Position numbers and translations under genes: made by a program. 30,586 bases of DNA, taken from positions 1 through 30,586 of IMG/VR virus record IMGVR_UViG_3300008262_004862. One strand, 5' to 3'. This document shows positions 4,674 through 27,919 of the stretch, piece after piece (the stretch's first letter is position 1; each line of letters starts with the position of its first letter). This DNA is from a virus (Duplodnaviria; Caudoviricetes). The notes under the pieces were generated by a model, which saw only the letters and a list, made by a program, of their open reading frames with translations, had not been told where the DNA came from and searched no databases.

Positions 4674-5083
4674 TGAAAAAATTATTTTGGAACATATTAG
4701 GTTTCCTAAGTCTAGGAATGGCCTACATTGGAGTTATAACTCCTGGCATACCCTATAGTCCTTTTGTGGTGTTTGCCGCATACTGTTTTAGCAAAGGCAG
4801 CGAACGTATGCATAGATGGATTTATAATCATCCGCTGTTTGGCCCATTCTTGACTAACTGGAATACCAAACGTGTATTCCCAACTAAGATGAAATTTTTT
4901 ATGATAGCTATGATGTCAACTAGCCTAATTATTATGTACTTCACAGGTGTTAAACTTATAGGTATATTCAGTACAGCAGTATTCATGGCACTGGTAGCTA
5001 CATGGGCTTGGAGATTTCCAGGCAGCGTAGAAGAGCATCAACGTAGATTAGACAGCGGAGAAAAGGTAGGTTGGTTCAGATGA
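4673..5083 (+). CDS. YbaN/DUF454-family inner membrane protein
   Basis: Matches the family pattern LG.....IG...PG.P..PF...AA.CF.KGS.R.H.W...HP.FGP....W. Confidence 0.85.
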   Translation: MKKLFWNILGFLSLGMAYIGVITPGIPYSPFVVFAAYCFSKGSERMHRWIYNHPLFGPFLTNWNTKRVFPTKMKFFMIAMMSTSLIIMYFTGVKLIGIFSTAVFMALVATWAWRFPGSVEEHQRRLDSGEKVGWFR

Positions 5084-5706
5084 CCTACAAAATGCACAAT
5101 CTGTTTCCTATTCCGTTGTATCAGACTTCAATCAAAGGACCTGATCCGATAATAGAAAAGATATTGATCAATTCAGAGTTTAGTAACTTCAATGATTCTG
5201 ACCCTACACACTTAGAAACACCTAAAAGACATTTGTTAGATCAACCACAATTTGCCAATCTTAAAAAACAGATACAAGAAAAAGTCGATGAATATGTCTA
5301 CGAGGTGTTGGGCGTGACTAGAAAACAACAGTGGCTAATAACCACTAGTTGGTTGAATAAATCATTGCCTGGTGGATATCACTCAATGCATTGGCACAGC
5401 AACAGCATGGTCAGCGGAGTATATTACCTAAAGACCAATCCTAGGTCTGGAGCTATTGGTTTTCACAAAGAACGCTCACATAACAATCTATGGCGTGACA
5501 CATTCTGTATAGACTTTGATAAGACTACAGAATATAACACTGACTGTGCTATTAATCCAAAAAATAACGATCTACTGTTATTTCCATCAATATTAAATCA
5601 TAGTGTTATGGATAATCTATCAACTGAAGATCGCTATAGTCTAGCTTTCAATGTTTTTCCTAGAGGCATAATTGGTGAAGGCGGCAACAGCGAATTGACT
5701 CTATGA
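5080..5706 (+). CDS. Putative 2OG-Fe(II) oxygenase (TIGR02466-like)
   Basis: LFPIP, SWLN, HWHSNS.VSGVYY, LLLFPS.L.HSV, RYSLAFN. Start placed at the ATGA overlap at 5080. Confidence 0.85.
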   Translation: MTYKMHNLFPIPLYQTSIKGPDPIIEKILINSEFSNFNDSDPTHLETPKRHLLDQPQFANLKKQIQEKVDEYVYEVLGVTRKQQWLITTSWLNKSLPGGYHSMHWHSNSMVSGVYYLKTNPRSGAIGFHKERSHNNLWRDTFCIDFDKTTEYNTDCAINPKNNDLLLFPSILNHSVMDNLSTEDRYSLAFNVFPRGIIGEGGNSELTL

Positions 5707-6347
5707 ATTATCAAGTCACTCCGTTATTTGCTATTCCCTTATACCAAACCCAACTGGCTAAATTAACTTCTCTAGAACATGAATTTATTCTAAATCTAGA
5801 ATATGAAAGAATGCCAGCTGACAACGGTGACTACACCAAAGACAAATATGTTTTAGAAAAGCCAGAGCTAACCTTTCTAAAAGAACGCATTGTAAAAGGC
5901 ATAGAACATTTTGTCTACGAAGTGCTAGATTGTTCACGTGAAGTTAAATTTGAAATACAAAACAGTTGGGTCAATAGGCACGGCCAAACAGACTTTGCCG
6001 GCACCCACAGACATTCAAATAGTTTGATCAGCGGTGTGTACTATATCGATGTTGATCAACAAAGCGGTGCTATTGTATTTGAAAAAGATAAAAGTTACTA
6101 TAATCTTTGGCCTAATGTTATAGACATTGAATTCAATTATCAAACACACGAAGACCAAAGTAGGTTAAACATATTCAACGCTGACGGATGGGGCATCTAT
6201 CCTAAAGTAAACGAATTAATAATGTTTCCTAGCCATCTGTATCACGGAGTAGGCGAAAATCATTCCAATATCGTCCGTTATAGTCTAGCATTTAATGTAT
6301 TCCCCAAAGGTAATCTAGGCGGCAAATTGAACACTTTATACATATAG
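5703..6347 (+). CDS. Putative 2OG-Fe(II) oxygenase (TIGR02466-like), tandem paralog
   Basis: LFAIP, SWVN, HRHSNS.ISGVYY, MFPSHLYHGV, RYSLAFN. Confidence 0.85.
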   Translation: MNYQVTPLFAIPLYQTQLAKLTSLEHEFILNLEYERMPADNGDYTKDKYVLEKPELTFLKERIVKGIEHFVYEVLDCSREVKFEIQNSWVNRHGQTDFAGTHRHSNSLISGVYYIDVDQQSGAIVFEKDKSYYNLWPNVIDIEFNYQTHEDQSRLNIFNADGWGIYPKVNELIMFPSHLYHGVGENHSNIVRYSLAFNVFPKGNLGGKLNTLYI

Positions 6348-6377
6348 TTGACAAAATCTAAAAAAGAGTATTAAATA
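6348..6377 (+). promoter_or_regulatory. Promoter for the tmRNA, possibly dual sigma70/late
   Basis: TTGACA at 6348-6353, 17-nt spacer, then TTAAAT. A TAAATA overlaps at 6372-6377. Confidence 0.6.
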
Positions 6378-6380
6378 TAA

Positions 6381-6697
6381 GTTATTGCTGTATGAAGCAA
6401 AGAGAAAAGTGTTCTGGACGCGGGTTCGACCCCCGCCAGGTCCACCATAAAGGAGATTAGCATGAATGACGATCTAACTAACGTAGGAATAGGCGTAGTT
6501 GTTGTTCTTGTAGTATTTGCTCTAGTTCTTTTATGATGGGCCTGACATTGGTTTCGACAGGGCAAAGAGTAACAGAGTGGACAGCACGTCAGGAGTAGAC
6601 GTAAAAAGCAAAACAACGTAAACGCAAACGACGAACAGTTCGCATTAGCAGCCTAAACACTGCTTAGGGTAAGACATACCTCGTAACAGAAACTCAG
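6381..6697 (+). ncRNA. ssrA: Circularly permuted (two-piece) tmRNA, tag peptide ANDEQFALAA
   Basis: The T-arm GCGGG-TTCGACC-CCCGC (6420-6436) and acceptor 3' strand CAGGTCC-A-CCA (6437-6447) lie upstream of the 5' strand GGGCCTG (6538-6544). Together they form a 7-bp stem with G3:U. Tag frame is 6624-6656. Outer ends are approximate. Confidence 0.93.
6462..6536 (+). CDS. 24-aa hydrophobic peptide MNDDLTNVGIGVVVVLVVFALVLL inside the tmRNA intervening segment
   Basis: AAAGGAG SD (6449-6455) 6 nt before ATG. A 17-residue apolar run. The ORF fills the spacer almost exactly. Confidence 0.6.
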   Translation: MNDDLTNVGIGVVVVLVVFALVLL

Positions 6698-6719
6698 AAC
6701 CCGCTTCGGCGGGTTTTTT
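6698..6719 (+). terminator. Intrinsic terminator after the tmRNA
   Basis: AACCCGC-TTCG-GCGGGTT followed by a T run. Sits between convergent genes. Confidence 0.88.
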
Positions 6720-7593
6720 ATTCTATAAATTTTATTGCTACAAATCTGTTGTTCGACACCGGGCCACTAAACTTAACTTGTCCAATGGCAAATTCGTAGG
6801 GCACAGTCTTCGGATCAATATTATAAGTTTTTAACCATTTGATAAACTCAGGGTGCTGATAAATTTTTTTTCTATTTTCGTTAACATCGATACAAAACCC
6901 CCCAAATGAACCTAACCGTCCTGTACAGTCAAGCTCTCTTGGGTAATCATTGTCAAAAAATGATTGTAAAAAACTTTTACCTAATATAGATTGATTTAAT
7001 ATAGCAACTGGACCTTCAGTCTGCATAAAGTTAAAATTTTGTTGTTGTTCTTCTTTGGTAAATTCTAGGAAATTTAAAGAACTTGCGTCTGTTTCAAAAT
7101 CTAAAAATTCCAAAGGCAATATATCGAACAGGAATTTATTTTTATTTGGGTGTACAACATTTTCTAACTTATGTACAGCATCGTTTATAGGATCAATTAA
7201 TGCTAACCAATCTTTAAATTTTTTAATAAACGGCGGCGGATGAAAATTGGGATCAAATGGATTAGGTTGATGATTACGAAATTCCCACCACATACAGTTA
7301 TAAGTGAAAAATCTGTGTATTTGATTTAAGACCTTTTGATCATAGTTAAAATTGGGAGAAATTTCAAACGGTATTTTATATTCAATAGCTTTTAAATTTT
7401 CAAATGCCTGTAGGACATTTTCCCATTCGGCAGGATTCTTGTTATTACCAATCAGTCCAGATCTTCTTAAGAATGATTTTTTAAATTTGTAATCTAAAGT
7501 TTTTGAAAATTCAAACCATTTTCGTATGCCGGGATTATCAAACAACTCTACCGTAACTAAATTTGAATTTTCAAAAAGTATTTCTATCTTCAT
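6718..7593 (-). CDS. Hypothetical protein
   Basis: Long AT-rich ORF. Start MKIEILF at 7593 chosen because TATAAATA (7598-7605, minus strand) lies 4 nt upstream. Confidence 0.7.
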   Translation of the reverse strand: MKIEILFENSNLVTVELFDNPGIRKWFEFSKTLDYKFKKSFLRRSGLIGNNKNPAEWENVLQAFENLKAIEYKIPFEISPNFNYDQKVLNQIHRFFTYNCMWWEFRNHQPNPFDPNFHPPPFIKKFKDWLALIDPINDAVHKLENVVHPNKNKFLFDILPLEFLDFETDASSLNFLEFTKEEQQQNFNFMQTEGPVAILNQSILGKSFLQSFFDNDYPRELDCTGRLGSFGGFCIDVNENRKKIYQHPEFIKWLKTYNIDPKTVPYEFAIGQVKFSGPVSNNRFVAIKFIE

Positions 7594-7668
7594 GAAATAT
7601 TTATAACCCACATTCCCTTCACTGATCCAATATATTTGTTATATACTTGTCCTATACAAACACTCAGT

Positions 7669-7746
7669 ATTGAAATTTCCTATAAGCATCATTAAAAAAT
7701 ATTTAGGAAAAATCTATTGATTTTGTATTCTAATAGGATATATAAT
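7669..7746 (+). promoter_or_regulatory. OxyR-like binding site with a sigma70 promoter for ahpC
   Basis: ATTG-N7-CTAT-N7-ATTA-N8-TTAG-N7-CTAT (7669-7717) abuts TTGATT-N18-TATAAT (7717-7746). Confidence 0.55.
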
Positions 7747-7800
7747 TTACACATACAACATAGGTTGTTAAGTTTTCAAAACACACACTAAGGAGAAGAT

Positions 7801-8358
7801 ATGAAAACAGTTGGCGATAAACTAGAAAAATTTGCAGTAACAGGTGTTAAACCTGGTCAGCCCAGTGATGCTTTTTTTGACATCACAGAAAAATCTTTTG
7901 AAGGTAAATGGAAAGTAGTTGTTTACTATCCAAAAGATTTTACATTTGTGTGCCCAACAGAAATCGTTGCCTACGACAAATTGTCTAAGGATTTTGAAGA
8001 CCGCGATGCTGTTCTACTTACAGGTAGCACAGACAACGAGTTTTGTAAAGTCAGCTGGCAAAATGCCCACCCTGATTTAAAAAATATCAAACACTTTCAA
8101 TTCGCTGATACACAGCGTTGGAATAATGACACTATGGAAGACCTAAGCCTAATTAACCAGCTTGGTATATTCTATGCTCCGGCGGGTGCGGCATTACGTG
8201 CTACATTCATCATTGACCCAGAGAACGTTATCCAACACGTGACTGTCAACAACTTGAACGTCGGTCGCTCACCAGAAGAAACTCTGCGTGTGTTAGACGC
8301 ACTTCAAACTGGCGAACTATGTGCTTGTAACCGTACAGTAGGCGGAGAGACTCTATAA
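7801..8358 (+). CDS. ahpC: Peroxiredoxin (alkyl hydroperoxide reductase C)
   Basis: YPKDFTFVCPTE, RATFIID, VGRS.EETLR.LDALQ, GELC. AAGGAG SD. Confidence 0.95.
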   Translation: MKTVGDKLEKFAVTGVKPGQPSDAFFDITEKSFEGKWKVVVYYPKDFTFVCPTEIVAYDKLSKDFEDRDAVLLTGSTDNEFCKVSWQNAHPDLKNIKHFQFADTQRWNNDTMEDLSLINQLGIFYAPAGAALRATFIIDPENVIQHVTVNNLNVGRSPEETLRVLDALQTGELCACNRTVGGETL

Positions 8359-8864
8359 TGGCATTCATTGACGCCATCAAAGAAGCGTTGCCAGACTACG
8401 CAAAGGACACTAAGTTAAATCTTGATGCTGTTCTTTTGCGTAGTACATTGGATGCTGATGTGGCCATGGGTTGTGCCGTAGCCGCATTAGCCGCAACTGG
8501 TAACGGAAAGGTACTGGCTGTATTACTAGCTGATGCTCCGGTTCACGCAGACTCAGCAATGACAGCCGCAAGCATTATGGCACAGAACAATGTGTGGTAC
8601 CCATTTGTTGAGATGGCTGACGATCCAGCACTAAAGGGATTGCCGGCAGGTCTACGTATGAACGCCATTGCTAGCCATGGCGGAACTACCAAGTCAAACT
8701 TTGAAGCATTCAGTTTAGCCGCTAGTATTGTTGGCAAGTGTCACTTCTGTGTGAAAGCACATTACGAAACACTCAAGCAAGAAGGCTACACAGTTGAACA
8801 GCTTCGTGACATTGGTCGCATTGCCAGTGTTATGAACTCAGTAGCCAAAGTGTTGAATAGCTAA
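8358..8864 (+). CDS. ahpD: Alkyl hydroperoxide reductase D
   Basis: LPDYAKD.KLNL, MAQNNVWY, LRMN, SIVGKCHFCVKAH. Coupled to ahpC by TAATG. Confidence 0.92.
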   Translation: MAFIDAIKEALPDYAKDTKLNLDAVLLRSTLDADVAMGCAVAALAATGNGKVLAVLLADAPVHADSAMTAASIMAQNNVWYPFVEMADDPALKGLPAGLRMNAIASHGGTTKSNFEAFSLAASIVGKCHFCVKAHYETLKQEGYTVEQLRDIGRIASVMNSVAKVLNS

Positions 8865-8971
8865 AATCGCTAACTTCTTTTAATGATATTCACTATGTGT
8901 TTTATGGTGATTCTGTCATATAATAACGATACATACTAGTGCAGTATGTTTTTATTAAAAGGAGTACGATT

Positions 8972-9043
8972 ATGTGGACAACACCAGAAGCAGTTGAAAT
9001 GCGTTACGGATTCGAAATCACTATGTACGTGATGAATCGATAA
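8972..9043 (+). CDS. pqqA: PQQ precursor peptide PqqA (MWTTPEAVEMRYGFEITMYVMNR)
   Basis: 23 aa with the family pattern MW..P....R.GFE.T.Y, including the E-x3-Y core. Has an AAGGAG SD and its own terminator. Missing from the ORF track. Confidence 0.92.
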   Translation: MWTTPEAVEMRYGFEITMYVMNR

Positions 9044-9052
9044 TAAAGACCT

Positions 9053-9075
9053 AGCCCACTTCGGTGGGCTTTCTC
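9053..9075 (+). terminator. Intrinsic terminator after pqqA
   Basis: AGCCCAC-TTCG-GTGGGCT followed by TTCTC. Confidence 0.8.
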
Positions 9076-9104
9076 TTGACTTAAATTTCAAAAGGTAATA
9101 TACT
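9076..9104 (+). promoter_or_regulatory. sigma70-type promoter
   Basis: TTGACT-N17-TATACT. Confidence 0.75.
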
Positions 9105-9134
9105 ATATCTATGATTGAAATTTTCGGAGGAATA

Positions 9135-9533
9135 ATGTTAGATTGTTTAATTATGGGTGACAGTATTGCTGTAGGCACAGCCCAGGTGCGACAAGAATGT
9201 GTTTCATATTCCAAAGGCGGCATCAACAGTTACCAATGGTTGAACTCAAACGTAGGTAAAAGTCCTTACGTTGCCAAAACTGTTATTATCAGTTTGGGAT
9301 CAAACGATCACAAATATGTAAAAACGGAAAGTGAAATACGAACCATTAGAACACTTACTAAAGCAGATCGTGTTTATTGGATTTTGCCAGCTATCAAACC
9401 CAATATTCAAGAAATTGTTATAAAGGTAGCGGCTGAATTTGGCGATGTAGTTTTGCCAATAACACGACTACAAAAAGACGGCGTCCATCCAAGTTGGGCA
9501 GGTTACAAAGAGTTAGCTGCTCAAACTAAGTGA
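9135..9533 (+). CDS. Small SGNH/GDSL-family hydrolase
   Basis: GDSIAVG, SLGSND and DGVHP blocks. The GGAGGA SD favours ATG 9135 over 9111. Confidence 0.8.
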   Translation: MLDCLIMGDSIAVGTAQVRQECVSYSKGGINSYQWLNSNVGKSPYVAKTVIISLGSNDHKYVKTESEIRTIRTLTKADRVYWILPAIKPNIQEIVIKVAAEFGDVVLPITRLQKDGVHPSWAGYKELAAQTK

Positions 9534-9592: not shown

Positions 9593-9973
9593 TTGAGTAT
9601 GCATTTAGAAGGTCCGTGGCTGTCAACTACGGGCAAGAAAAAAGGCAAAAAGAAGTTTGCTTCGGCAGAACATGCTAGAAAGGCTCGTGAGCAAGCAGAG
9701 GCTTGGCAAGACCTTTTAAAACGACATAACATTACTTCATCTCCAAAAAAGAAATCCAAATCCGAAACATATAAACCTCGCGAAGAAGCATATCGTCGAG
9801 AGACTCCGCATATACCTAGTTTGGACCCTACCAATATGGCACCTTGCCTTAAGTCTCCAAATAAAGTATATACTGGCACTATGATCAAAGGCATTGGTAC
9901 TATGCATAAGTCCAATGCTGTGCCAATTTTTTCCGACGAAGAAGCAATTGATATTGCTACAATGAGGAGGTAA
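9593..9973 (+). CDS. Basic hypothetical phage protein
   Basis: The C-terminal YTGTMIKGIGTMHKSNAVP motif is recalled from T4-like phage hypotheticals. GGAG SD precedes the TTG start. Confidence 0.75.
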   Translation: MSMHLEGPWLSTTGKKKGKKKFASAEHARKAREQAEAWQDLLKRHNITSSPKKKSKSETYKPREEAYRRETPHIPSLDPTNMAPCLKSPNKVYTGTMIKGIGTMHKSNAVPIFSDEEAIDIATMRR

Positions 9974-14524: not shown

Positions 14525-14919
14525 TAGGTAATAAATTACTGCTAGTAACTCCCCCTGATGATATAAACATAGACGGACTTAGAATATTATTAGTGGGAAT
14601 ATCTCATGATAAAACTAATCTAATATCAACAGCCCTAACACAACTGCCTTCCATACCTAATACCGTTTTATACATGTGGGCAGCAGGTAACGATATTTCA
14701 TGGCTGATGGATAAAAAGAATAAAAGTCATTTAATTATTTTTGATGTAGAAAACCTACCAGGAGAATTAGTTGGCTATTTTAGTGCCCAATTAAATAGTT
14801 ATTATTTTGGCCACCTGCGTGACCTAGGCATAATTAATAACAACAGTATTTTAGATGTAGATCAATGTTATCAACTTTTGGAGAACACAATAACAACCTA
14901 TGAAAAATCAATACGATAA
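14521..14919 (+). CDS. Hypothetical protein
   Basis: 132-aa ORF overlapping its neighbours at both ends. Confidence 0.7.
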   Translation: MIGNKLLLVTPPDDINIDGLRILLVGISHDKTNLISTALTQLPSIPNTVLYMWAAGNDISWLMDKKNKSHLIIFDVENLPGELVGYFSAQLNSYYFGHLRDLGIINNNSILDVDQCYQLLENTITTYEKSIR

Positions 14920-15145
14920 CCGAATCTGTAAAGGTGTTACAGTTTATGTTAAAGAAGGAGAACACATTGAACGTGCTCTCAAAAAATTTAAGAATAAAAT
15001 AAGCGATTCTAAACTGCTAGAAACTTTGAGGGCTAAAGAGTTCTACGAAAAACCTACTACAGAACGCAAACGCAAAAAGTCTGCTGCCAAAGCACGTTGG
15101 AAAAAAAGACTTAAAGATCAACAGTTACCACCAAAACTGTATTGA
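14900..15145 (+). CDS. rpsU: Ribosomal protein bS21
   Basis: V.VKEGE.IERALKKFK...EFYEKPTTERKRKK.AA..R. GGAG SD. Confidence 0.9.
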   Translation: MKNQYDNRICKGVTVYVKEGEHIERALKKFKNKISDSKLLETLRAKEFYEKPTTERKRKKSAAKARWKKRLKDQQLPPKLY

Positions 15146-15170
15146 CATTTTAAATCCCAGATGTTATAAT
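15142..15170 (+). promoter_or_regulatory. Consensus sigma70 promoter with extended -10
   Basis: TTGACA-N17-TATAAT with TG at the extended position. Confidence 0.88.
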
Positions 15171-15199
15171 AGTAATATATTATACATAGAAAGAGATTA

Positions 15200-15781
15200 A
15201 TGAAAACAGATATTATGATAGACTTAGAGACGTTGGATATTTTACCAACGGCTACTATTTTAACTATCGGAGCAGTGAAATTTGATCCGTTTGGGGAAGA
15301 AATAGCTGAACCTAATATGGAAAAATTCTATGTTAAAGTTGACATTGACAGTTGTGATAAGTTAGATTGTACTGTATCACAATCTACACTTGATTGGTGG
15401 GCAAGTCAAAGCAAAGAAGCACAAGAAGAAGCATTTAGTCCCGACAACAGAATTGATATTATAGATGCTATGAATCAACTGTACAAATTCTGTTGGGGAG
15501 CAAAGCGTGTATGGAGTCACGGTGCTGGCTTTGACATTATCATTTGCGAGCATTTATTCCGTAAAATTGGCAAGGCAATTCCATGGCAATTTTGGGAAGT
15601 TCGCGATACCCGCACACTGTTTGACATTGGAGTTGACCCTAAGCGTCCGCCCGTACTAAAACATCATGCTTTAGAAGATGCTTGGAATCAAGCAGTAGGT
15701 GTCCAAAATGTATACAAAAAATTAAGATCATCTAGTAGCATAGATGGTGTTTTAATTAGACCGCTAGCAAATCAAAGATAA
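15200..15781 (+). CDS. DEDDh 3'-5' exonuclease (Rv2179c-like)
   Basis: MIDLETL, IGAVKF, WSHGAGFD, RDTRT, HHALEDA. Confidence 0.88.
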   Translation: MKTDIMIDLETLDILPTATILTIGAVKFDPFGEEIAEPNMEKFYVKVDIDSCDKLDCTVSQSTLDWWASQSKEAQEEAFSPDNRIDIIDAMNQLYKFCWGAKRVWSHGAGFDIIICEHLFRKIGKAIPWQFWEVRDTRTLFDIGVDPKRPPVLKHHALEDAWNQAVGVQNVYKKLRSSSSIDGVLIRPLANQR

Positions 15782-15787
15782 ATAATT

Positions 15788-15862
15788 TTGTAGGACGCTT
15801 CGGGTTCTACAAACGGGCAGTAGCCCAAAATTAAATCTTGCTTAATTAAAGGAGATAACATT
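15788..15862 (+). promoter_or_regulatory. Structured dnaK leader with a ROSE-like SD hairpin
   Basis: Hairpins at 15788-15812 and 15815-15826, then TCTTGCTT-aatta-AAGGAGA (15836-15855) with a bulged G. Confidence 0.6.
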
Positions 15863-17728
15863 ATGAGCAAAGTCATCGGTATTGACCTCGGAACCACCAA
15901 TTCATGCGTGGCTATCATCGAGTCAGGAAATTCCAAAGTTATTGAAAATTCAGAAGGTGCCCGTACTACACCTAGTATTGTTGCCTATACTGAAAATGAA
16001 GTACTAGTTGGTGCTTCGGCAAAACGCCAAGCAGTAACTAATCCAAAAAACACCATTTATGCTTCAAAGCGTTTAATTGGTCGTAAATTTAAAGAAAAAG
16101 AAGTACAAAAAGACATCGACTTGATGCCATACGAAATCATGGAAGCCAGCAATGGCGATGCTTGGATTAAGGCACAAGACAAAGAACTTGCCCCACCACA
16201 GGTCAGTGCTGAAGTTCTGCGTAAAATGAAAAAAACAGCGGAGGACTATCTAGGTCATGAAGTTACACAAGCCGTTATCACAGTTCCTGCGTACTTTAAC
16301 GACAGCCAAAGACAGGCAACTAAGGATGCTGGAAAAATCGCAGGCTTGGAAGTACTGCGTATTATTAACGAGCCTACTGCGGCAGCTCTTGCTTATGGCG
16401 TTGATAAAGCTGATAAAGCTGACAGGAAAATTGCTGTTTACGATCTTGGTGGCGGTACTTTCGATGTATCGATCATTGAGATCGCGAATGTAGACGGCGA
16501 CAAGCAAATTGAAGTTCTAAGTACCAATGGTGATACATTCTTAGGTGGTGAAGACTTTGACCAACGCATTATGGATTATTTGGTTGATGAGTTTAAGAAA
16601 GAACAAGGCTTTGATTTGACTAAGGACATGCTGGCTCTACAACGTCTAAAAGACGCAGCTGAAAAAGCCAAAATTGAGTTGTCCAATAGTTCACAAACAG
16701 AAGTCAACTTGCCATATATCACCGCCGATGCTTCGGGTCCTAAACATCTAATCGTTAAACTCACTCGTGCTAAACTAGAAAGTCTAGTAGAAGATCTTAT
16801 CAATCGTTCATTGGCACCTTGTCGAGTGGCTATGAAAGATGCCGGCGTAAGTGCTTCAGACATCGACGAAGTTATCTTAGTTGGTGGTCAAACACGTATG
16901 CCTAAGGTACAAGAAGAAGTTGAAAAGTTGTTCGGCAAAGCACCAAGACGTGATGTTAATCCAGACGAAGCAGTAGCAGTTGGTGCGGCTATCCAAGGTG
17001 CTGTTCTAGCAGGTGATCGCAACGATGTGTTGTTGTTAGATGTTACTCCGTTAAGCCTAGGTATTGAAACTATGGGCGGAGTGTTTACTAAACTTGTACA
17101 AAAGAACACAACGATTCCGACTAAAGCATCACAGGTGTTTTCAACTGCTGAAGATAACCAACCTGCTGTTACTATCAAAGTTGGACAAGGCGAACGTGAG
17201 CTATTCCAATATAATAAATTGCTAGGTGAATTTAACCTAGAAGGCATTGCTCCTGCTCGCAGAGGTACACCCCAAATTGAAGTAGCCTTTGATATTGATG
17301 CTAACGGCATTATGAATATATCGGCTAAGGATAAAGGCACAGGTAAAGAAAATAAGATCACTATCAAATCAGATTCTGGTCTAAGCAAGGATCAAATTGA
17401 TCAGATGATCCAAGATGCTGAAGCCAATGCTGAAGCTGATAAAAAAGCACGTGAATTAATTGATGCCAAGAATAATGCCGAAGCATTAATTAATACTGTT
17501 GAAAATGACATGAAAGAAGTTACTCTAGCAGAATCAGATAAGAAAGCAGTTGAGGACGCTATTGCTGAACTTCAGAAAGAATTGACTGGCACAGACAAAG
17601 ACGCTATCACTCAAAAGACCAGCGACTTAATTGCTGCCAGTCAAAAGATCGCAGAGTCTAAGCAATCTCAAAATACCGAGGACAGCAAAGACGATGTGGT
17701 CGATGCGGAGTTTAAGCAAACTACTTAA
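15863..17728 (+). CDS. dnaK: Chaperone DnaK (Hsp70)
   Basis: [48 protein letters not shown], terminal VVDAEF. Confidence 0.98.
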
Positions 17729-17733
17729 ACTCA

Positions 17734-17786
17734 AGGGTGCTCAGGTGAGGCCCTAAATCATTCTTGCTTAAAAAGGAGAAAATAAA
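17734..17786 (+). promoter_or_regulatory. ROSE-like RNA thermometer upstream of hsp20
   Basis: Hairpin at 17734-17754, then TTCTTGCTT-aaa-AAGGAGAA (17761-17780). Confidence 0.65.
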
Positions 17787-18227
17787 ATGAATGGTAATTT
17801 AACACGTTTTGATACTAATGCTCTTAACAGAGCTCTAATTGGGTTTGATCAGTTGTTTGATACTTTTGAAACACGATTCGCTAATCAATTAACCAATAAC
17901 TATCCGCCATACAATATTGAGAAAGTTTCAGAAAATCTCTATGATATTGTTATTGCTGTAGCCGGTTTTGAAAAAAACGAAGTCAACGTAGAAATTGAAG
18001 GTGGACAACTAACAATCCGTGGACAAAAAACAGTAGCAGAATCTCATGCTCCAGAATATCTACATCGTGGACTTGGTTTCCGAGATTTCGAGCGTAGATT
18101 TACACTTGCGGAACATATGGAAGTAATTAAGGCTGAAATTAAAAACGGTCTACTATCAATCCAGATCGAACGCAAAGTTCCAGAGGCTCTATTACCACGC
18201 CAGATTGAAGTGGTTGAGGTTAAGTAA
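17787..18227 (+). CDS. Small heat shock protein (Hsp20/IbpA-like)
   Basis: IGFDQLF, NYPPYNI, IAVAGF, YLHRG, FERRFTLAE, NGLL.I. Confidence 0.95.
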   Translation: MNGNLTRFDTNALNRALIGFDQLFDTFETRFANQLTNNYPPYNIEKVSENLYDIVIAVAGFEKNEVNVEIEGGQLTIRGQKTVAESHAPEYLHRGLGFRDFERRFTLAEHMEVIKAEIKNGLLSIQIERKVPEALLPRQIEVVEVK

Positions 18228-18274
18228 TAGTATGTAATCCGGGGGAGGAAACTCCCCCTAAACGGAGCAATAAA

Positions 18275-18577
18275 ATGGCTGATACAGATATCCAAATAGA
18301 AGACAAAATTAAAATAGAACTTCAACCACCAAAAATGTGGAAAGTGGTGTTCTTAAACGATGACCATACTCCTATGGAATTTGTTATAGAATTGTTGATG
18401 GGTGTGTTCAAACACGATGAAGCTAGATCAAGAGACATCACATTAGAGATACACGAAACTGGTGCTGCTGTAGTAGGTGTCTATACATACGAAATAGCAG
18501 AAAACAAAGGTGTTGAATCAAGTCGGCTAGCTCAAGAGCACGGTTTTCCTTTACAGATTCGCGTAGAGGAAGAATAA
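18275..18577 (+). CDS. clpS: Clp protease adaptor ClpS
   Basis: PPKMWKVVFLNDDHTPMEFV, IHETG.AVVG.Y.YEIAE.K, FPL. Confidence 0.95.
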   Translation: MADTDIQIEDKIKIELQPPKMWKVVFLNDDHTPMEFVIELLMGVFKHDEARSRDITLEIHETGAAVVGVYTYEIAENKGVESSRLAQEHGFPLQIRVEEE

Positions 18578-18634: not shown

Positions 18635-19192
18635 ATGAGTCTTAAAGAACTTACTAAAGAAAAGCACCAGGACGCAGAACGCACAGAATTTGCTAAACTT
18701 TTGTTGAGCGGAAAAATCAGCAAAGAAATGTACGGGCTCTATCTAGCCCAGATGTTAGAAGTCTACGGCAAATTAGAATATTATTGTGTAAAAGCAGAAC
18801 TACTAAAAGATTTACCCGGACTAGGTCGTGCTTTATATATTTTTGAAGATCTAAAAGAACTAGACATTCCCCTAACTGGTATAAAGATACTAGAAGCTAC
18901 TAGTGCCTATTCCGAATACCTTGCTACCCTCGCAGAAGATGAAACCAAACACCACTTACTAATGGCTCATCTATATGTACGACATATGGGCGATCTATAT
19001 GGCGGTCAGATGATTGCTAAAAAAGTGCCTGGCAGCGGTAAGTTTTATCAATTTAGAAATAAAGAAGAATTAATAGGTAAGATACGAGCCAAACTCACGG
19101 ATGACCTAGGCGATGAAGCTAATATCGCATTTGATCATGCTATTGCTATTATGAAGGAACTTAATGAGTCTAGTTTGGAACACGCTGATTGA
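18635..19192 (+). CDS. hemO: Heme oxygenase
   Basis: LKELTKEKHQDAE (proximal His) and AHLYVRHMGDLYGGQMI. Confidence 0.92.
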   Translation: MSLKELTKEKHQDAERTEFAKLLLSGKISKEMYGLYLAQMLEVYGKLEYYCVKAELLKDLPGLGRALYIFEDLKELDIPLTGIKILEATSAYSEYLATLAEDETKHHLLMAHLYVRHMGDLYGGQMIAKKVPGSGKFYQFRNKEELIGKIRAKLTDDLGDEANIAFDHAIAIMKELNESSLEHAD

Positions 19193-19844
19193 AATCCAAC
19201 ATCAGCTAGAAAAACAATTCGAAGAAACCGGAATTGAAACTCAAGAGCCGGGTATGAGTAGATTCAATCAGCCGGGTTGGGTAAACAGGGTATGGACTAG
19301 TGGCAATTATCGTAGAGCTCATATCGATGTAGTCGATGCCCGATCCACAAAGGGCCTCTGGATGATGCACTGTTGTGTATTTCCTCATATCCATAACCCG
19401 GCACCCATATTTGGATTTGATGTAATCGCAGGTAAGAACAAAATTACAGGGTGTTTCTTAGACTATAGTCCTACTACAGATCGTGAACATCCGATGATAG
19501 AATACTTTGCTGAAGAAGTGTCTAGATATGAGTGGATACGTAAGCGTGAACTACCAGACTGGGCACAACGTATTTTTAGTCCACATATGGTAGCTGCGGG
19601 CAATGTACAAGCAGAAGATGAACTAAGTCAAATTTCTAATCTAGCACATGTTATGATAAACCATTACTTAGAAACTGTGGGTGAAACTAATAACATGACA
19701 GCTGATACTACTTTTGAACAAAATTTTTATGCTCAAAATCAAAAACAAAATCCACACACGCCTAGAGTAATGACCAGTCTTGGTCTAGATGAAGAGGATG
19801 TCAAAGTCTTTATACAAGACTGTTTATTCCCCGAATTACGCTAA
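19164..19844 (+). CDS. pcyX: Ferredoxin-dependent bilin reductase, PcyX/PcyA type
   Basis: RRAHID(55), MMH(69)CCVFP, PIFGFD(86), LPDWAQRIFS, QKQNPHT. Overlaps the heme oxygenase gene. Confidence 0.85.
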   Translation: MSLVWNTLIEIQHQLEKQFEETGIETQEPGMSRFNQPGWVNRVWTSGNYRRAHIDVVDARSTKGLWMMHCCVFPHIHNPAPIFGFDVIAGKNKITGCFLDYSPTTDREHPMIEYFAEEVSRYEWIRKRELPDWAQRIFSPHMVAAGNVQAEDELSQISNLAHVMINHYLETVGETNNMTADTTFEQNFYAQNQKQNPHTPRVMTSLGLDEEDVKVFIQDCLFPELR

Positions 19845-21048: not shown

Positions 21049-21678
21049 ATGAAAAAAGTATTAATAACCGTGGCGTTATTTGCGATGGTTGGATCAGTAT
21101 CAGCAGCAGATCCTATCGTAACTGATTCTACATCAAGAAGTACCGTAGATTCAAATTCTACAACAACAATAAAATCTCCACCACCTACAGCAGTAGCACC
21201 AGCAATTACTACCATTAATAATGATGTATGTGCCGTAGCAGCGAGTGGAGCAGTCCAAACGCAGATTCTTGGTATCTCCATGGGTGGTACGATGAGAGAT
21301 ATGAATTGCGAAAGAATCAAACTTTCAAAGAACTTATATGACATGGGCATGAAGGTAGCTGCTGTAGCTTCTTTATGTCAAGATGAACGAGTGTTCGCAG
21401 CTATGTTGGCTGCTGGAACACCTTGTCCTATTGATGGTAAGATCGGCGAGCAAGCAAAATCAGAATGGCAAGCACGTGGTGTCATTGATAACCAAAAGAA
21501 AGAAAATGTTGGTTATTATGCTACCAAAGCACCTACAGTAGATTTAAGGGAACCACCTAAAGATTCTCAGCCCAAAGATGCGGCTGGTAAGGAGGTATCC
21601 AAAAGTAACAACGTGGGGAAGTGTGATGCTTATACTGGTGATGATCCTGTTGTAAGAGCGAGAGTCTGTGGTAAATGA
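21049..21678 (+). CDS. Secreted Cys-containing protein
   Basis: Signal peptide ending VSA-A, SPPPTAVAP, six Cys. TAAATA at 21015-21020 and a GGAG SD. Confidence 0.8.
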   Translation: MKKVLITVALFAMVGSVSAADPIVTDSTSRSTVDSNSTTTIKSPPPTAVAPAITTINNDVCAVAASGAVQTQILGISMGGTMRDMNCERIKLSKNLYDMGMKVAAVASLCQDERVFAAMLAAGTPCPIDGKIGEQAKSEWQARGVIDNQKKENVGYYATKAPTVDLREPPKDSQPKDAAGKEVSKSNNVGKCDAYTGDDPVVRARVCGK

Positions 21679-23921
21679 AACAACTAATAAAGTTTGCAGC
21701 GGCAGTAGTCATGTCGATCGTCGGGTCGATAGCTGCCGCACAGACTGTTCAAACTACACCTAATTTAATTCAACCAAATCATTGGGCAGGTGTAACCTAC
21801 GGAGTCCATCCAGGAGATTGTTGTACTGGTGGGCCGCAACCACTTTATGATACAAGTAATAACTCAATAAACTTTTCTTATGGCAACTATAATGTTGCCC
21901 AACTAGTTGCGTTAAATCAAGCACTGTCAGGAACAGGTATAAATGTTCGTGGATTTAATTATTCGTGGACTATTACTACTGCAACTCAAAATGGCGTTGA
22001 TCCTCTTAATGCCAGTGTTGGGCTTTATAGTTCTTCTGGAAATTATCTAGAAGGATTTAATTATTCTTATAACAATGCTGTGACAAATCAAACGTACTCG
22101 GGTACGGAGAATTTTTCACAACACTATCCATTGGCTAGTCTTTATGGGATACAATTAAATTTTCAATCAGTAGATAATGGATTCTGGGCAGGATATTATG
22201 GACCAAGAGTAAGTAATATCAGTTTGACTGCTAATTATGGTGTTGATCCCTGTGCCGCTAATCCAGCATATTCTCCATCATGTCCCGGATTTAACACAGT
22301 AATAACCAGCGGTAATCTACTGTCTGGTACAACTGGTGTACAGGCATATGCTATCAATCAAGCATTGGCCTTAGCAGGAGCAGGTGCTACTATTCATGGG
22401 TTTGATTACGGTTACAATTATAATGTTGCTGGAAGACAATGTGCTGTGTGGGATTTATTTGGTCTTTGCTTAACAGGTTTTAACTATTCCGATGCCGGTG
22501 TTTCAACAGTTATCACAGATAGTAATAATGCTACAATCTTCAGTGAATCCAACACACATAATGGTGGTGACAATGGAACTTCTGGAACATTTAGCAAACA
22601 ATTTAGATTTGGTTCCTCTTTGCCAATGTCAACGTTGGGCGGGTTTGCCATGGCCCCATGGACTAGCGGTAATGCTAGTATAACAAACATGTACAGTAAT
22701 GCGGTATATACTCCTGATGTTTGCATATCAAATCCTTTGTATTCTCCTTCATGCCCTGGATATGCTGCTGCTTATTTTACACAGCAATGTACAGCTAATC
22801 CTTTATATGACTCAAGTTGTCCTGGATATGCTCAAGCGTTTTTTACACAACAATGTACAGCAAATCAATTATATAATCCTGCTTGTCCTGGGTATGCTGC
22901 TGCTTATCTAAATCAACAATGTACAGCTAATCCTTTATATGCTACACAATGCCCAGGATATGAAACTGCTTATCTAAATCAACAATGTACAGCTAATCCT
23001 TTATACTCAACAAGCTGTTCTGGATATCAAACAGCAACAACACAATGTTCTGTAAATCCATTAAGCAATACTCTGTGCTCAGGATATACTACAGCTTCCA
23101 ATACATGTTCTAATAACCAATTGACTTATTCTTATTGCCCTAACTATACCACTACTCTTGCTTCCTGCGGATCTAATCCACAGAGTAATACTATGTGCCC
23201 AGGATATAGCACAACTAAATCTACATCAACTGGAGGTGGTGGATTTTCAACATCTTCCACATCAGAACCATCTTTATCTGTTAGTTCTTCAGGTAAAGTA
23301 GAAGCTACAGTTTCTAAAACTGGCGATAGTAATGTAGACAGTGTGGTAGATAGACAATCAACATCTGCTTCACCTAGCGACACAACCGCAGCGGTAAAAC
23401 TAGCTCCGGCTCCAGCTCCCCCGTCACAGGGATCTAATCCTTCAGCTGGTCCAGCAGCCCCTATGGCCGCTGCCGCTGCTAAAGAAGAAAAGAAAAAAGA
23501 CGAACAAAAGGCTGAAACATCATCAGGCGGTCAAGGACCTATGGCTAAATCTTCCGGCCCATCAGACGGTGGTGATAAAGACAGACCTAAAACTGCTAGA
23601 CAAGAGATACAAGAAAAACGTGAAGCTGCCGCCAAAGCCAAAGCTGTTGAGGAAGGAAAACAACTAGCAGGCAAAATGGGAGATTCTGTATCGATGGAAC
23701 AACAGATTGCTGTACAAAATGTAGTATTACAGGCAATGGGATTTACACCGGGATTCGATGTTTATAATCGTGCTATAATGCCTGACGCTGTAGGTTACAG
23801 ACCATTTGAAATTTATCGTGGTCAACGAAACATAGACACACCGTCATCACGCAGATTGTTAAGTGGGTCAGATAGGCTCCACACTGAAATGATTGATCAA
23901 CAATATAATAGGGGGCAATAA
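21675..23921 (+). CDS. Large secreted protein with Cys-rich repeats and a low-complexity linker
   Basis: Signal peptide, two related beta-rich domains, tandem C..NPLY...CPGY repeats, a Ser/Pro/Ala linker and a charged C-terminal domain. Confidence 0.85.
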   Translation: MKQLIKFAAAVVMSIVGSIAAAQTVQTTPNLIQPNHWAGVTYGVHPGDCCTGGPQPLYDTSNNSINFSYGNYNVAQLVALNQALSGTGINVRGFNYSWTITTATQNGVDPLNASVGLYSSSGNYLEGFNYSYNNAVTNQTYSGTENFSQHYPLASLYGIQLNFQSVDNGFWAGYYGPRVSNISLTANYGVDPCAANPAYSPSCPGFNTVITSGNLLSGTTGVQAYAINQALALAGAGATIHGFDYGYNYNVAGRQCAVWDLFGLCLTGFNYSDAGVSTVITDSNNATIFSESNTHNGGDNGTSGTFSKQFRFGSSLPMSTLGGFAMAPWTSGNASITNMYSNAVYTPDVCISNPLYSPSCPGYAAAYFTQQCTANPLYDSSCPGYAQAFFTQQCTANQLYNPACPGYAAAYLNQQCTANPLYATQCPGYETAYLNQQCTANPLYSTSCSGYQTATTQCSVNPLSNTLCSGYTTASNTCSNNQLTYSYCPNYTTTLASCGSNPQSNTMCPGYSTTKSTSTGGGGFSTSSTSEPSLSVSSSGKVEATVSKTGDSNVDSVVDRQSTSASPSDTTAAVKLAPAPAPPSQGSNPSAGPAAPMAAAAAKEEKKKDEQKAETSSGGQGPMAKSSGPSDGGDKDRPKTARQEIQEKREAAAKAKAVEEGKQLAGKMGDSVSMEQQIAVQNVVLQAMGFTPGFDVYNRAIMPDAVGYRPFEIYRGQRNIDTPSSRRLLSGSDRLHTEMIDQQYNRGQ
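22720..23210 (+). repeat. Coding tandem repeat with a 66-nt (22-aa) period that decays to shorter units
   Basis: A 40-nt exact duplicate at 22900-22939 and 22966-23005. Unit is QQCTANPLYxxxCPGYxxAY. Confidence 0.9.
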
Positions 23922-27073: not shown

Positions 27074-27241
27074 ATGAACAATTCGTGGAACGCTTTAGAT
27101 AATGTGTTCGATTTACAAATTTGGTTTTTCCTACAGATGTACTATTGGCCTTATTATGCTATAGGCAAACAAGATGATTGGAAAGACTGGGTTGGATCTA
27201 GTTTAAACGGATGGCGTGTTTCTAATCTTTGCAAGCCTTAA
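27074..27241 (+). CDS. Possible 55-aa aromatic-rich peptide
   Basis: MNNSWNALDNVFDLQIWFFLQMYYWPYYAIG... ATG is 4 nt after TAAATA (27064-27069). Its 3' end overlaps the desaturase. Confidence 0.4.
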   Translation: MNNSWNALDNVFDLQIWFFLQMYYWPYYAIGKQDDWKDWVGSSLNGWRVSNLCKP

Positions 27242-27919
27242 AAACTTTAACACGATTATATAAAACCATCCAATATCAAATTCATACCATTTTTTACTGA
27301 ACTTGGCACTAGCACCATCGCCGTGGTGATTATTATGCAACATTTCTCCACCAATCCAAAAATCAATTGGTAGTAAATTGCGGCTAGTGTCTTTAACATC
27401 GTAGTTGCGATAACCCCACCAATGAGCAGCACCGTTAATAACACCTGCTGCCCAAAATGGAATCCATATCATTTGGACTCCCCACACAATCATCCCTGTA
27501 GGGCCAAAGAGCAATAGGTCTATGACCAACATCAAAAGAATCCCTGCGAGGGGGTAGGGAGTGTAAACTTTTTCTTCAATCCAATCATTAGGTGTACCGT
27601 GACCTAGATCGTTAATTAATATTTTATTACGTTTTGCTTTGACATATAAAAATGCTCCGCCAAACAATACCCGCCATATGCCATGCTGTTTAGGACTATG
27701 TGGGTCTTGTTCTGTATCTGCTGCTTGGTGATGTTTTCGATGTACAGCGACCCACTCACGAGTGTTCATGCCTGTGGTCATCCATAACCAAAATCGCATA
27801 AAATGTGCCACTATCGGATGAAACTGTACCGATCTGTGTGCTTGTGATCTGTGTAAGTAGAGTGTAACACATGCTATGGTAATTTGAACCATAACTAAAG
27901 TTGCTATTATTTTATCCAT
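27203..27919 (-). CDS. Membrane fatty acid (delta-9 type) desaturase
   Basis: His boxes HRSQAH, HRKHH and HNNHH, plus DPHSP and HWWGY. Confidence 0.93.
   Translation of the reverse strand: MDKIIATLVMVQITIACVTLYLHRSQAHRSVQFHPIVAHFMRFWLWMTTGMNTREWVAVHRKHHQAADTEQDPHSPKQHGIWRVLFGGAFLYVKAKRNKILINDLGHGTPNDWIEEKVYTPYPLAGILLMLVIDLLLFGPTGMIVWGVQMIWIPFWAAGVINGAAHWWGYRNYDVKDTSRNLLPIDFWIGGEMLHNNHHGDGASAKFSKKWYEFDIGWFYIIVLKFLRLAKIRNTPSV

What the first reader, a model, noticed from the sequence alone, without database searches (positions are those of the whole stretch)
8956..9075. Stand-alone pqqA in a phage genome
Seen: a 23-aa peptide with GFE-ITM-Y, a strong SD and its own UUCG terminator, with no pqqB-E in the window. 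Known: the Glu and Tyr of PqqA are cross-linked by PqqE/PqqD to make PQQ, so the peptide is consumed stoichiometrically. PQQ serves methanol, alcohol and glucose dehydrogenases. Inferred: a 72-nt auxiliary metabolic gene feeding the host PQQ pathway, for energy or, beside ahpCD, redox protection, or acting as a decoy. It suggests a PQQ-using, possibly methylotrophic betaproteobacterial host. Gene callers would miss it.
Basis: partly seen in the sequence, partly recalled or inferred. Interest (0 to 1): 0.85.

Follow-up and report, generated by a model that had tools for sequence, protein, structure and literature searches.

The report
Jumbo-phage pqqA with host regulator box
A large uncultured phage carries an intact 23-codon copy of the bacterial gene pqqA behind a DNA box that also precedes bacterial pqqA genes, so it likely supplies extra precursor peptide for the host's cofactor PQQ under a host regulator's control; phage pqqA itself was reported in 2020.

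Summary
Confirmed: a real pqqA at 8972-9043 (+), above the Pfam and NCBIfam cut-offs, with Glu15-x3-Tyr19, SD and UUCG terminator. The contig is viral; syntenic relatives are ~350-kb T4-like phages. No pqqB-E or PQQ alcohol dehydrogenase was found in the window or six related records. The gene is accessory (15 of 80 related ahpD loci) and under purifying selection, strongest on the core (pN/pS 0.09), which favours substrate over decoy. All 48 IMG/VR matches to this promoter pattern precede pqqA. A NarL-family response regulator that co-occurs with pqqA (94 of 97 genomes) and often adjoins it is the predicted activator. Host: a PQQ-making betaproteobacterium; methylotrophy plausible, not shown. 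The link to ahpCD is loose. Phage pqqA is published (Lake Baikal, 2020), and this scan has noted it on other DNA many times (131 findings), box included. Nothing is tested at the bench. New member of a known kind; interest 0.4.

The parts
8880..8896 (+). 17-bp imperfect palindrome (TTAATGA-TAT-TCACTAT), predicted binding site of a host NarL-family activator
   Evidence: Best site (11.3 bits) in the 30.6-kb window for a matrix built only from bacterial pqqA upstream regions; conserved at fixed spacing in relatives; 48 of 48 promoter-pattern matches precede pqqA
8919..8924 (+). -10 hexamer TATAAT, 39 nt after the start of the box; no consensus -35
   Evidence: the sigma-70 scan does not list this promoter
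8931..8949 (+). Short hairpin (7-bp stem) at the predicted 5' end of the mRNA; predicted stabiliser
   Evidence: Predicted at the 5' end in 12 of 15 distinct boxed leaders with a stem of 7 bp or more, with swapped arm sequences and loops of 5-11 nt; single z-scores weak, +0.2 to -2.8
8960..8964 (+). Shine-Dalgarno AGGAG
   Evidence: invariant in 11 of 11 aligned leaders
8972..9043 (+). pqqA, 23 aa; Glu15 (9014-9016) and Tyr19 (9026-9028)
   Evidence: Glu15 and Tyr19 invariant in 31 of 31 distinct 72-nt alleles
9053..9078 (+). Intrinsic terminator, C(UUCG)G loop, predicted on both strands; overlaps the -35 of the next promoter (9076)
   Evidence: a terminator-like hairpin follows pqqA in 13 of 15 ahpD-found loci
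7801..8864 (+). Context: ahpC-ahpD pair directly upstream; no terminator predicted between ahpD and pqqA
   Evidence: linkage to pqqA is variable

Best explanation
The phage carries an intact, self-contained pqqA cassette that likely makes extra precursor peptide for the host's own PQQ enzymes, and is predicted to be switched on by a host two-component regulator. Shown: the gene, its Glu-x3-Tyr core, purifying selection, the box at fixed spacing, the absence of pqqB-E in the records searched. Inferred steps: (1) after infection the host NarL-family regulator binds the box next to the -35 position and recruits sigma-70 RNA polymerase; (2) a ~150-nt mRNA protected by a 5' hairpin and a 3' terminator gives much peptide; (3) host PqqDEBC made before infection convert it to PQQ; (4) PQQ keeps periplasmic alcohol or methanol dehydrogenase feeding electrons to respiration during the replication of a ~350-kb genome. 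The phage needs only the consumable part of the pathway, which costs it about 200 bases.
For: Family scores above cut-offs. pN/pS 0.21 overall, 0.09 for codons 12-20, 0.45 for the leader, over 31 alleles. The same core RYGFEITMY stands directly beside pqqB in 5 bacterial-type contigs, and 11 of 121 Tyr12-pattern loci adjoin pqqB, so the core is a natural substrate sequence. Motif found de novo in bacterial upstream regions; its best window site is this one; >=10 bits in 9 of 12 ahpD-found upstream regions versus 0.8% of shuffles, and in 39 of 112 pattern-found viral ones versus 0.5%. 48 of 48 promoter-only matches precede pqqA. Regulator orthologue in 97 of 401 sampled genomes, 94 of them with pqqA; directly upstream of a pqqA copy in 42 of 61 genomes checked; the 3 genomes whose pqqA lacks the box also lack it. 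No pqqB-E, dehydrogenase or regulator in the window or 6 related records. Hosts multiply pqqA themselves (up to 7 matches per genome; five copies in the strain of PMC9851590).
Against: No expression, binding or complementation data. An 11-bit site is by itself near chance (11 and 12 sites >=10 bits in two ~355-kb genomes); position and conservation carry the claim. The promoter pattern was drawn from pqqA loci of one clade, so 48 of 48 partly reflects shared descent. Three boxed host genomes had no regulator match (G042, G182, G345), and related genomes are not independent in the co-occurrence count. The box was not found in front of 6 host PQQ-dehydrogenase genes (12 loci). The gene is dispensable: 4 of 5 near-complete relatives found through AhpD lack it, among them the syntenic G003. 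Some phage copies have lost or weakened the box (L014, L250). That PqqA limits PQQ supply is not established; the one paper read points also to PqqE, PqqB and PqqC. The host is unidentified.
Confidence: 0.72

Rival explanations
1. Redox cassette: pqqA is read through from the ahpCD promoter and the PQQ serves as an antioxidant that protects the infected cell.
For: Adjacent to ahpD with no terminator between; 10 of 15 pqqA-bearing ahpD loci have it 102-121 nt downstream; the ahpC upstream region shows OxyR-like spacing in relatives (consensus recalled).
Against: It has its own conserved promoter. It lies 0.4-3.3 kb from ahpD in many relatives, behind gp23 in G002, and in G006, which has no ahpC or ahpD match. 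65 of 80 ahpD loci show no intact pqqA within the DNA held.
Confidence: 0.1
2. Decoy: the peptide occupies PqqD or PqqE and lowers host PQQ output, or the box titrates the host regulator.
For: The leader that binds PqqD is retained (W2, T3, P5, A7, R11 invariant in 31 of 31 alleles); this allele differs from the closest bacterial copies found at 5 of 23 positions (78%).
Against: Glu15 and Tyr19 are invariant and the core is more constrained than the leader; the core sequence occurs in pqqA genes beside pqqB; the phage box is weaker than host boxes (11 versus mostly 21-29 bits), a poor titrating site.
Confidence: 0.07
3. Passenger: a small host cassette picked up in a variable slot and kept by chance or by selection acting only in some hosts.
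For: Patchy among close relatives; syntenic loci exist with and without it.
Against: Synonymous changes far exceed replacements; the spacer between box and -10 varies in sequence but keeps its length; unrelated phages carry it too, including 9 records of cultured Methylophilales phages.
Confidence: 0.08
4. The contig is bacterial and the rest of the pqq operon lies elsewhere.
For: Many host-like genes (dnaK, rpS21, ahpCD, desA, tmRNA).
Against: Classed as a virus record; 99.98% identical over its whole length to IMG/VR record G422, estimated 14% complete at 49 kb; 25 of 30 window proteins have homologues, in the same order, in 353-kb G003, which encodes gp23.
Confidence: 0.01

Closest known systems
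Viral PqqA of Lake Baikal population VP_266 (Coutinho et al. 2020, PMC7678222; passages and section 9 read)
   Same: pqqA in a T4-like freshwater virus, proposed as an auxiliary metabolic gene that boosts PQQ; that paper also lists nrdAB and a class II aldolase for its two populations, as in this window.
   Different: That report assigns a Methylophilaceae host and a viral methanol dehydrogenase, and says nothing in the section read about promoter, selection or distribution. Here no dehydrogenase was found, the clade is ~350 kb and the host is open. Its gene tables were not in the supplement held, so the sequences could not be compared.
Bacterial PqqA (PF08042, TIGR02107), above all the dispersed extra copies in Burkholderiales genomes
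   Same: Length, leader, Glu-x3-Tyr core, upstream palindrome; 78% identity to the best copies, e.g. in two 1.3-Mb genomes with three copies each.
   Different: No pqqBCDE or regulator in the phage; one medium-strength box 39 nt before -10 instead of a strong box at 61-62 nt plus a weak site at 38-39 nt.
Unannotated pqqA in cultured Methylophilales phages (P19250A, Venkman, MEP301, MEP401, MEP402, Melnitz)
   Same: 68-78% identical peptides; box of 8.5-17.3 bits in 4 of 5 regions opened, with a -10-like hexamer 38 nt on in P19250A and MEP301; MEP402 shares the leader PEAVEMR.
   Different: 35-142-kb phages with known methylotroph hosts, not shown to be kin of this clade.
Viral pqqA/pqqD/pqqE in reservoir sediments (PMC13188868; passages read)
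   Same: pqqA listed among virus-encoded genes.
   Different: Read there as a phosphate-solubilisation gene; no analysis of the cassette in the passages seen.

Membership tests
PqqA precursor peptide (PF08042 / TIGR02107) | Score above the curated cut-offs | tested here: met
   33.3 vs 21.1 bits; 32.9 vs 20 bits
PqqA precursor peptide (PF08042 / TIGR02107) | Conserved Glu-x3-Tyr near the C-terminus of a 23-24-aa peptide | tested here: met
   Glu15/Tyr19, invariant in 31 of 31 alleles; Glu-16/Tyr-20 in the peptide of PMC10906245
PqqA precursor peptide (PF08042 / TIGR02107) | Leader bound by PqqD, core cross-linked by PqqE, converted to PQQ | not testable with these tools
   Needs biochemistry; the peptide is below the 30-residue chain length asked for by the complex tool, and no PqqA chain was found in the PDB search
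pqqABCDE operon | pqqB-E in the same locus or genome | tested here: not met
   None in the window or in G002, G003, G006, G009, G422, G423; no PqqD family hit in 5 records; none beside 210 viral loci
Phage auxiliary metabolic gene | Lies in a viral genome among viral genes | tested here: met
Phage auxiliary metabolic gene | Intact and under purifying selection | tested here: met
   pN/pS 0.21 overall, 0.09 in the core
Phage auxiliary metabolic gene | Expressed during infection | tested here: inconclusive
   A relative's pqqA lies on a 3,084-nt contig of one freshwater RNA library; contigs cannot show transcription
Phage auxiliary metabolic gene | Changes host metabolism or phage yield | not testable with these tools
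   Needs a cultured phage-host pair
Phages of methylotrophic Methylophilaceae | Host is a methylotroph | tested here: inconclusive
   Closest PqqA copies are in small genomes with a PQQ methanol/ethanol dehydrogenase and in cultured Methylophilales phages; DnaK 71-75% and S21 42-61% across the order give no signal; two-piece tmRNA is absent from those genomes
Regulon of the pqq-linked NarL-family regulator (not a described family; candidate proposed here) | Palindromic box at host spacing from a -10 | tested here: met
   39-nt spacing equals that of the host's second site
Regulon of the pqq-linked NarL-family regulator (not a described family; candidate proposed here) | The regulator binds the box and activates | not testable with these tools
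   Only co-occurrence and adjacency

The most novel reading that the evidence does not exclude
Unrelated phages, from 35-kb genomes to ~350-kb jumbo phages, have converged on a ~200-base device: pqqA behind a shortened one-site version of the host's two-site PQQ promoter, read by an undescribed host PAS-kinase/NarL-family regulator pair. The phage would thus plug into the host's own signal of PQQ demand, supplying only the consumable substrate, and in this clade possibly in a non-methylotrophic betaproteobacterium.
Probability: 0.45. Interest if true: 0.65.

Novelty: new member of a known kind. Interest (0 to 1): 0.4.

Why it matters
It would show a phage steering host respiration by supplying a consumable peptide substrate instead of an enzyme, at almost no genomic cost, and it points to an overlooked class of tiny auxiliary genes (about 2,700 stored IMG/VR stretches match one pattern, estimate). 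The phage promoters also expose a candidate regulator and operator for PQQ synthesis in betaproteobacteria, whose regulation one 2023 paper calls unclear (PMC9851590). Cultured phage-host pairs that carry the gene make the test possible. The occurrence of pqqA in phages is itself not new.

Tried and rejected
Host assignment: AhpD against genome contigs gave 50-58% to Burkholderiales (76 of 80 loci); the four better hits (64-93%) lie on 6.5-23-kb MAG contigs of four unrelated labels at 37-44% GC and look like misbinned phage pieces, so not used. DnaK: 71-75% among the 150 matches listed of 363 genomes; the protein search returned only unnamed metagenome relatives. S21: 42-61% in 78 of 80 genomes, no pattern. 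tmRNA: weak BLAST matches in 14 of 401 genomes; identical tag in G018 and G217, which have one-piece genes and unboxed pqqA; two-piece form in 4 of 80 genomes, 1 with pqqA; 0 of 9 genomes of G259's genus have pqqA. Box as a mark of a wider phage regulon: rejected, the top sites in G002 and G003 are at chance level and mostly inside ORFs. Box in front of host dehydrogenase genes: not found. Tyr12 as a phage-specific change: rejected. Expression: two RNA runs held 6% of the words, contigs only; no evidence either way. PDB search: no PqqA chain. A complex prediction with PqqD was not run (peptide too short, textbook pair). NrdA against cultured phages: best 55%, no cultured member of the clade. 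Literature on the box or regulator: searches listed nothing on it by title or abstract start (one search returned 0 papers); only PMC12997753 was opened (passages: Pseudomonas pqq operon likely under AgmR, no motif in the passages). The metaHi-C preprint has no mention of pqq. The Melnitz paper mentions PQQ only as a medium additive.

Full report
OBSERVATION. The sequence shows an ATG at 8972, 23 codons (MWTTPEAVEMRYGFEITMYVMNR), two stop codons from 9041, AGGAG 7 nt before the start, and a 7-bp stem with a C(UUCG)G loop at 9053-9070 followed by a T-rich tail (z -3.64). The peptide passes PF08042 (33.3 bits, cut-off 21.1) and TIGR02107 (32.9, cut-off 20). None of the other 43 window proteins scanned is a pqq gene.

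IT IS A PHAGE. The window is a 30,586-base virus record, 99.98% identical to part of IMG/VR record G422 (49 kb, estimated 14% complete). AhpD finds relatives on contigs of up to 357 kb. G003 (353 kb, 98% complete) shares 25 of 30 tested window proteins in the same order and encodes T4-type gp23. The closest cultured phage by NrdA is only 55% identical, so the clade appears uncultured.

STAND-ALONE AND ACCESSORY. Host PqqB, C, D, E, a PQQ alcohol dehydrogenase and the regulator pair described below gave no tblastn hit at E<=1e-3 in the window or in G002, G003, G006, G009, G422 and G423 (G002 and G006 are near-complete and carry pqqA). Family searches for the dehydrogenase and PqqD found 0 of 5 records each, and none lay beside 210 viral loci (80 pattern-found, 130 from the clade searches). 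An intact pqqA lies within the DNA held downstream of ahpD in 15 of 80 loci, 10 of them at 102-121 nt; 5 of the 80 had under 1 kb downstream. Of 5 near-complete genomes found through AhpD, 1 has pqqA, and there it follows gp23. Syntenic loci exist with and without it. One degenerate pattern matches about 2,700 stored stretches of IMG/VR (estimate from 3 of 64 parts). Twelve GenBank phage records matched the peptide, 10 at 68-78%, 9 of them cultured Methylophilales phages; in 5 of 5 regions opened the gene is not annotated on its strand.

SELECTION. Over 31 distinct 72-nt alleles (window, the AhpD-found and hairpin-found loci and two more; 24-aa alleles left out), Glu15 and Tyr19 never change; pN/pS is 0.21 overall, 0.09 for codons 12-20 and 0.45 for codons 2-11 (uncorrected pairwise counts on related sequences). 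By the passages read in PMC10906245, the leader binds PqqD and the C-terminal Glu and Tyr reach PqqE. Stronger constraint on the core fits a substrate better than a decoy. Tyr12 was absent from the 74 bacterial copies first fetched but occurs in 1 of 80 pqqA-bearing genomes and in 11 of 121 loci that adjoin pqqB, 5 of them with the very core RYGFEITMY.

THE PROMOTER. Earlier notes of this scan spoke of a host box before phage pqqA; I tested that here. A de novo search on 74 bacterial pqqA upstream regions (40 genomes from a 401-genome sample of the order of G010, a Paraburkholderia genome by the title) gave the palindrome CT(A/C)ATGA-WWW-TCATGAG. With a matrix from those regions alone, the best site in the window is 8880-8896, 92 nt before the ATG, at 11.3 bits. 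That score alone is near chance (11 and 12 sites >=10 bits in two ~355-kb genomes). Position decides it: >=10 bits in 9 of 12 distinct AhpD-found upstream regions against 0.8% of shuffles, and in 39 of 112 pattern-found viral regions against 0.5%. In the clade a -10 hexamer usually starts exactly 39 nt after the box, while the 22-nt spacer varies in sequence. In hosts, 68 of 74 regions have a box of >=12 bits (training set), -10-like hexamers pile up at 61 (43) and 62 (19) nt, and a weak second half-site lies at +23, that is 38-39 nt before the -10. So the phage keeps one site where the host has its second. The same short spacing peaks in other phages: 19 and 12 of 52 boxed regions at 38 and 39 nt, against at most 7 at any other offset, and it appears in cultured P19250A and MEP301. 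A scan of IMG/VR with the promoter pattern only gave 48 loci; 47 were followed by pqqA by pattern and the 48th by a variant visible in the output; the pattern came from this clade, so descent contributes. There is no consensus -35 (one search does not list the promoter), as expected where an activator is needed (inference). Exceptions: L014 has no box; L250 (G002) and several others score only 4-7 bits. A small 5' hairpin is conserved with exchanged arms but is weak singly.

CANDIDATE REGULATOR. In G258 and G386 the stand-alone pqqA copy follows a PAS histidine kinase and a NarL/GacA-like response regulator, below the cut-offs of all named NCBIfam models shown; strong boxes there lie before the two pqqA copies. 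This regulator has matches at E<=1e-62 in 97 of 401 genomes; 94 of them are among the 108 with pqqA (the tallies include G308, flagged unpublished). It lies directly upstream of a pqqA copy in 42 of the 61 genomes for which I entered both places, within 2.5 kb in 8 more, and unlinked in 11. Of 40 genomes scored for the box, 34 have box and regulator, 3 have neither, and 3 have a box but no regulator match. These genomes are related, so the counts overstate independence. Binding is untested. The box was not found before host dehydrogenase genes, so it marks PQQ synthesis rather than the whole methanol regulon.

HOST. Named bacterial AhpD relatives are almost all Burkholderiales, the tmRNA scores 140 bits to the betaproteobacterial two-piece model, and pqqA, box and regulator occur in that order. 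Finer assignment failed: DnaK 71-75%, S21 42-61%. For a methylotroph: the closest bacterial peptides (78%) include two 1.3-Mb genomes, one shown to hold a methanol/ethanol-family PQQ dehydrogenase, and cultured carriers infect Methylophilales. Against: those genomes lack a two-piece tmRNA and are not among the best DnaK matches; but a phage tmRNA need not match the host, as reported for Melnitz (PMC9004378, passages). I put a methylotrophic host at about even odds.

MECHANISM. Most likely (0.72) the peptide is a real substrate fed to host PqqDEBC, keeping PQQ dehydrogenases supplied during infection; the regulator step is a prediction. That PqqA is consumed while the enzymes turn over follows from the known pathway (PMC12997753 passages; own knowledge); hosts carry several copies (PMC9851590 passages). 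Whether PqqA limits flux is not shown. The redox, decoy and passenger readings are weaker for the reasons listed under rivals. Expression is untested: a relative's pqqA lies on a contig from one freshwater RNA library, which cannot show transcription.

WHAT IS KNOWN. Coutinho et al. 2020 (PMC7678222; passages and section 9) reported PqqA in T4-like Lake Baikal viruses of predicted Methylophilaceae hosts; its supplement as held (1 file, 572 characters) has no gene table, so kinship of VP_266 to this clade is open. PMC13188868 lists viral pqqA in reservoir sediments (passages). Searches listed no other paper on phage pqqA, and those none on this box or regulator, judged from listings; subscription papers are mostly not covered. 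This scan holds 131 earlier findings on phage pqqA in at least 112 genomes, several naming the box; two word look-ups for the regulator or spacing returned none, which does not prove it unnoted.

VERDICT. A real, conserved, probably functional phage pqqA: a new member of a known kind. The added value is the shortened host promoter and a testable candidate regulator. Interest 0.4.

Noticed in passing
window ~7660-7750, upstream of ahpC: Spacing like an OxyR site (consensus recalled): 18 of 61 distinct ahpC upstream regions of relatives match >=12 of 16 positions versus 2% of shuffles; the window matches 11 of 16. A second host regulator may control a phage gene here.
   Followed up: partly
window 6334-6747: Two-piece (permuted) betaproteobacterial-type tmRNA, tag ANDEQFALAA; relatives carry very different and longer tags.
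   Followed up: partly
window 18635-19844: Heme oxygenase plus ferredoxin-dependent bilin reductase (PcyA-like, below cut-off) in a phage of a probably non-cyanobacterial host; present in G002, G003 and G006 too.
   Followed up: no
window 14900-18577: Host-like translation and protein-quality block: ribosomal protein S21, 3'-5' exoribonuclease, DnaK, Hsp20, ClpS.
   Followed up: partly
window 27206-27919 (-): DesA-family fatty acid desaturase above the NCBIfam cut-off (403 vs 400 bits).
   Followed up: no
window 9111-9533: GDSL/SGNH-like hydrolase that moves around ahpC, ahpD and pqqA in relatives; the slot between DUF454 and the ORF at 9593 is a swap region for small host-like genes.
   Followed up: partly
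G258:C1:1504551-1506951; G386:C346:10007-12441: PAS histidine kinase and NarL-family regulator between two pqqA copies; no named model reached its cut-off.
   Followed up: yes
L633, L635: Phage pqqA variants with changes beside the Glu and Tyr (GFECTMY; GMEITAY) behind the intact promoter: natural tests of core tolerance.
   Followed up: no
L201, L207, L230, L232: Phage pqqA cassettes with 24-aa alleles that keep the host-type 61-nt spacing, possibly more recent captures.
   Followed up: no
L646 (MZ577095.1 ~74885-74956): In Melnitz-1 the annotated hypothetical gene lies on the strand opposite to pqqA, which is itself unannotated.
   Followed up: yes
window 5071-6347; 21675-23921: Tandem 2OG-Fe(II) oxygenases; a 748-aa protein with cysteine-rich repeats and no Pfam match.
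   Followed up: no
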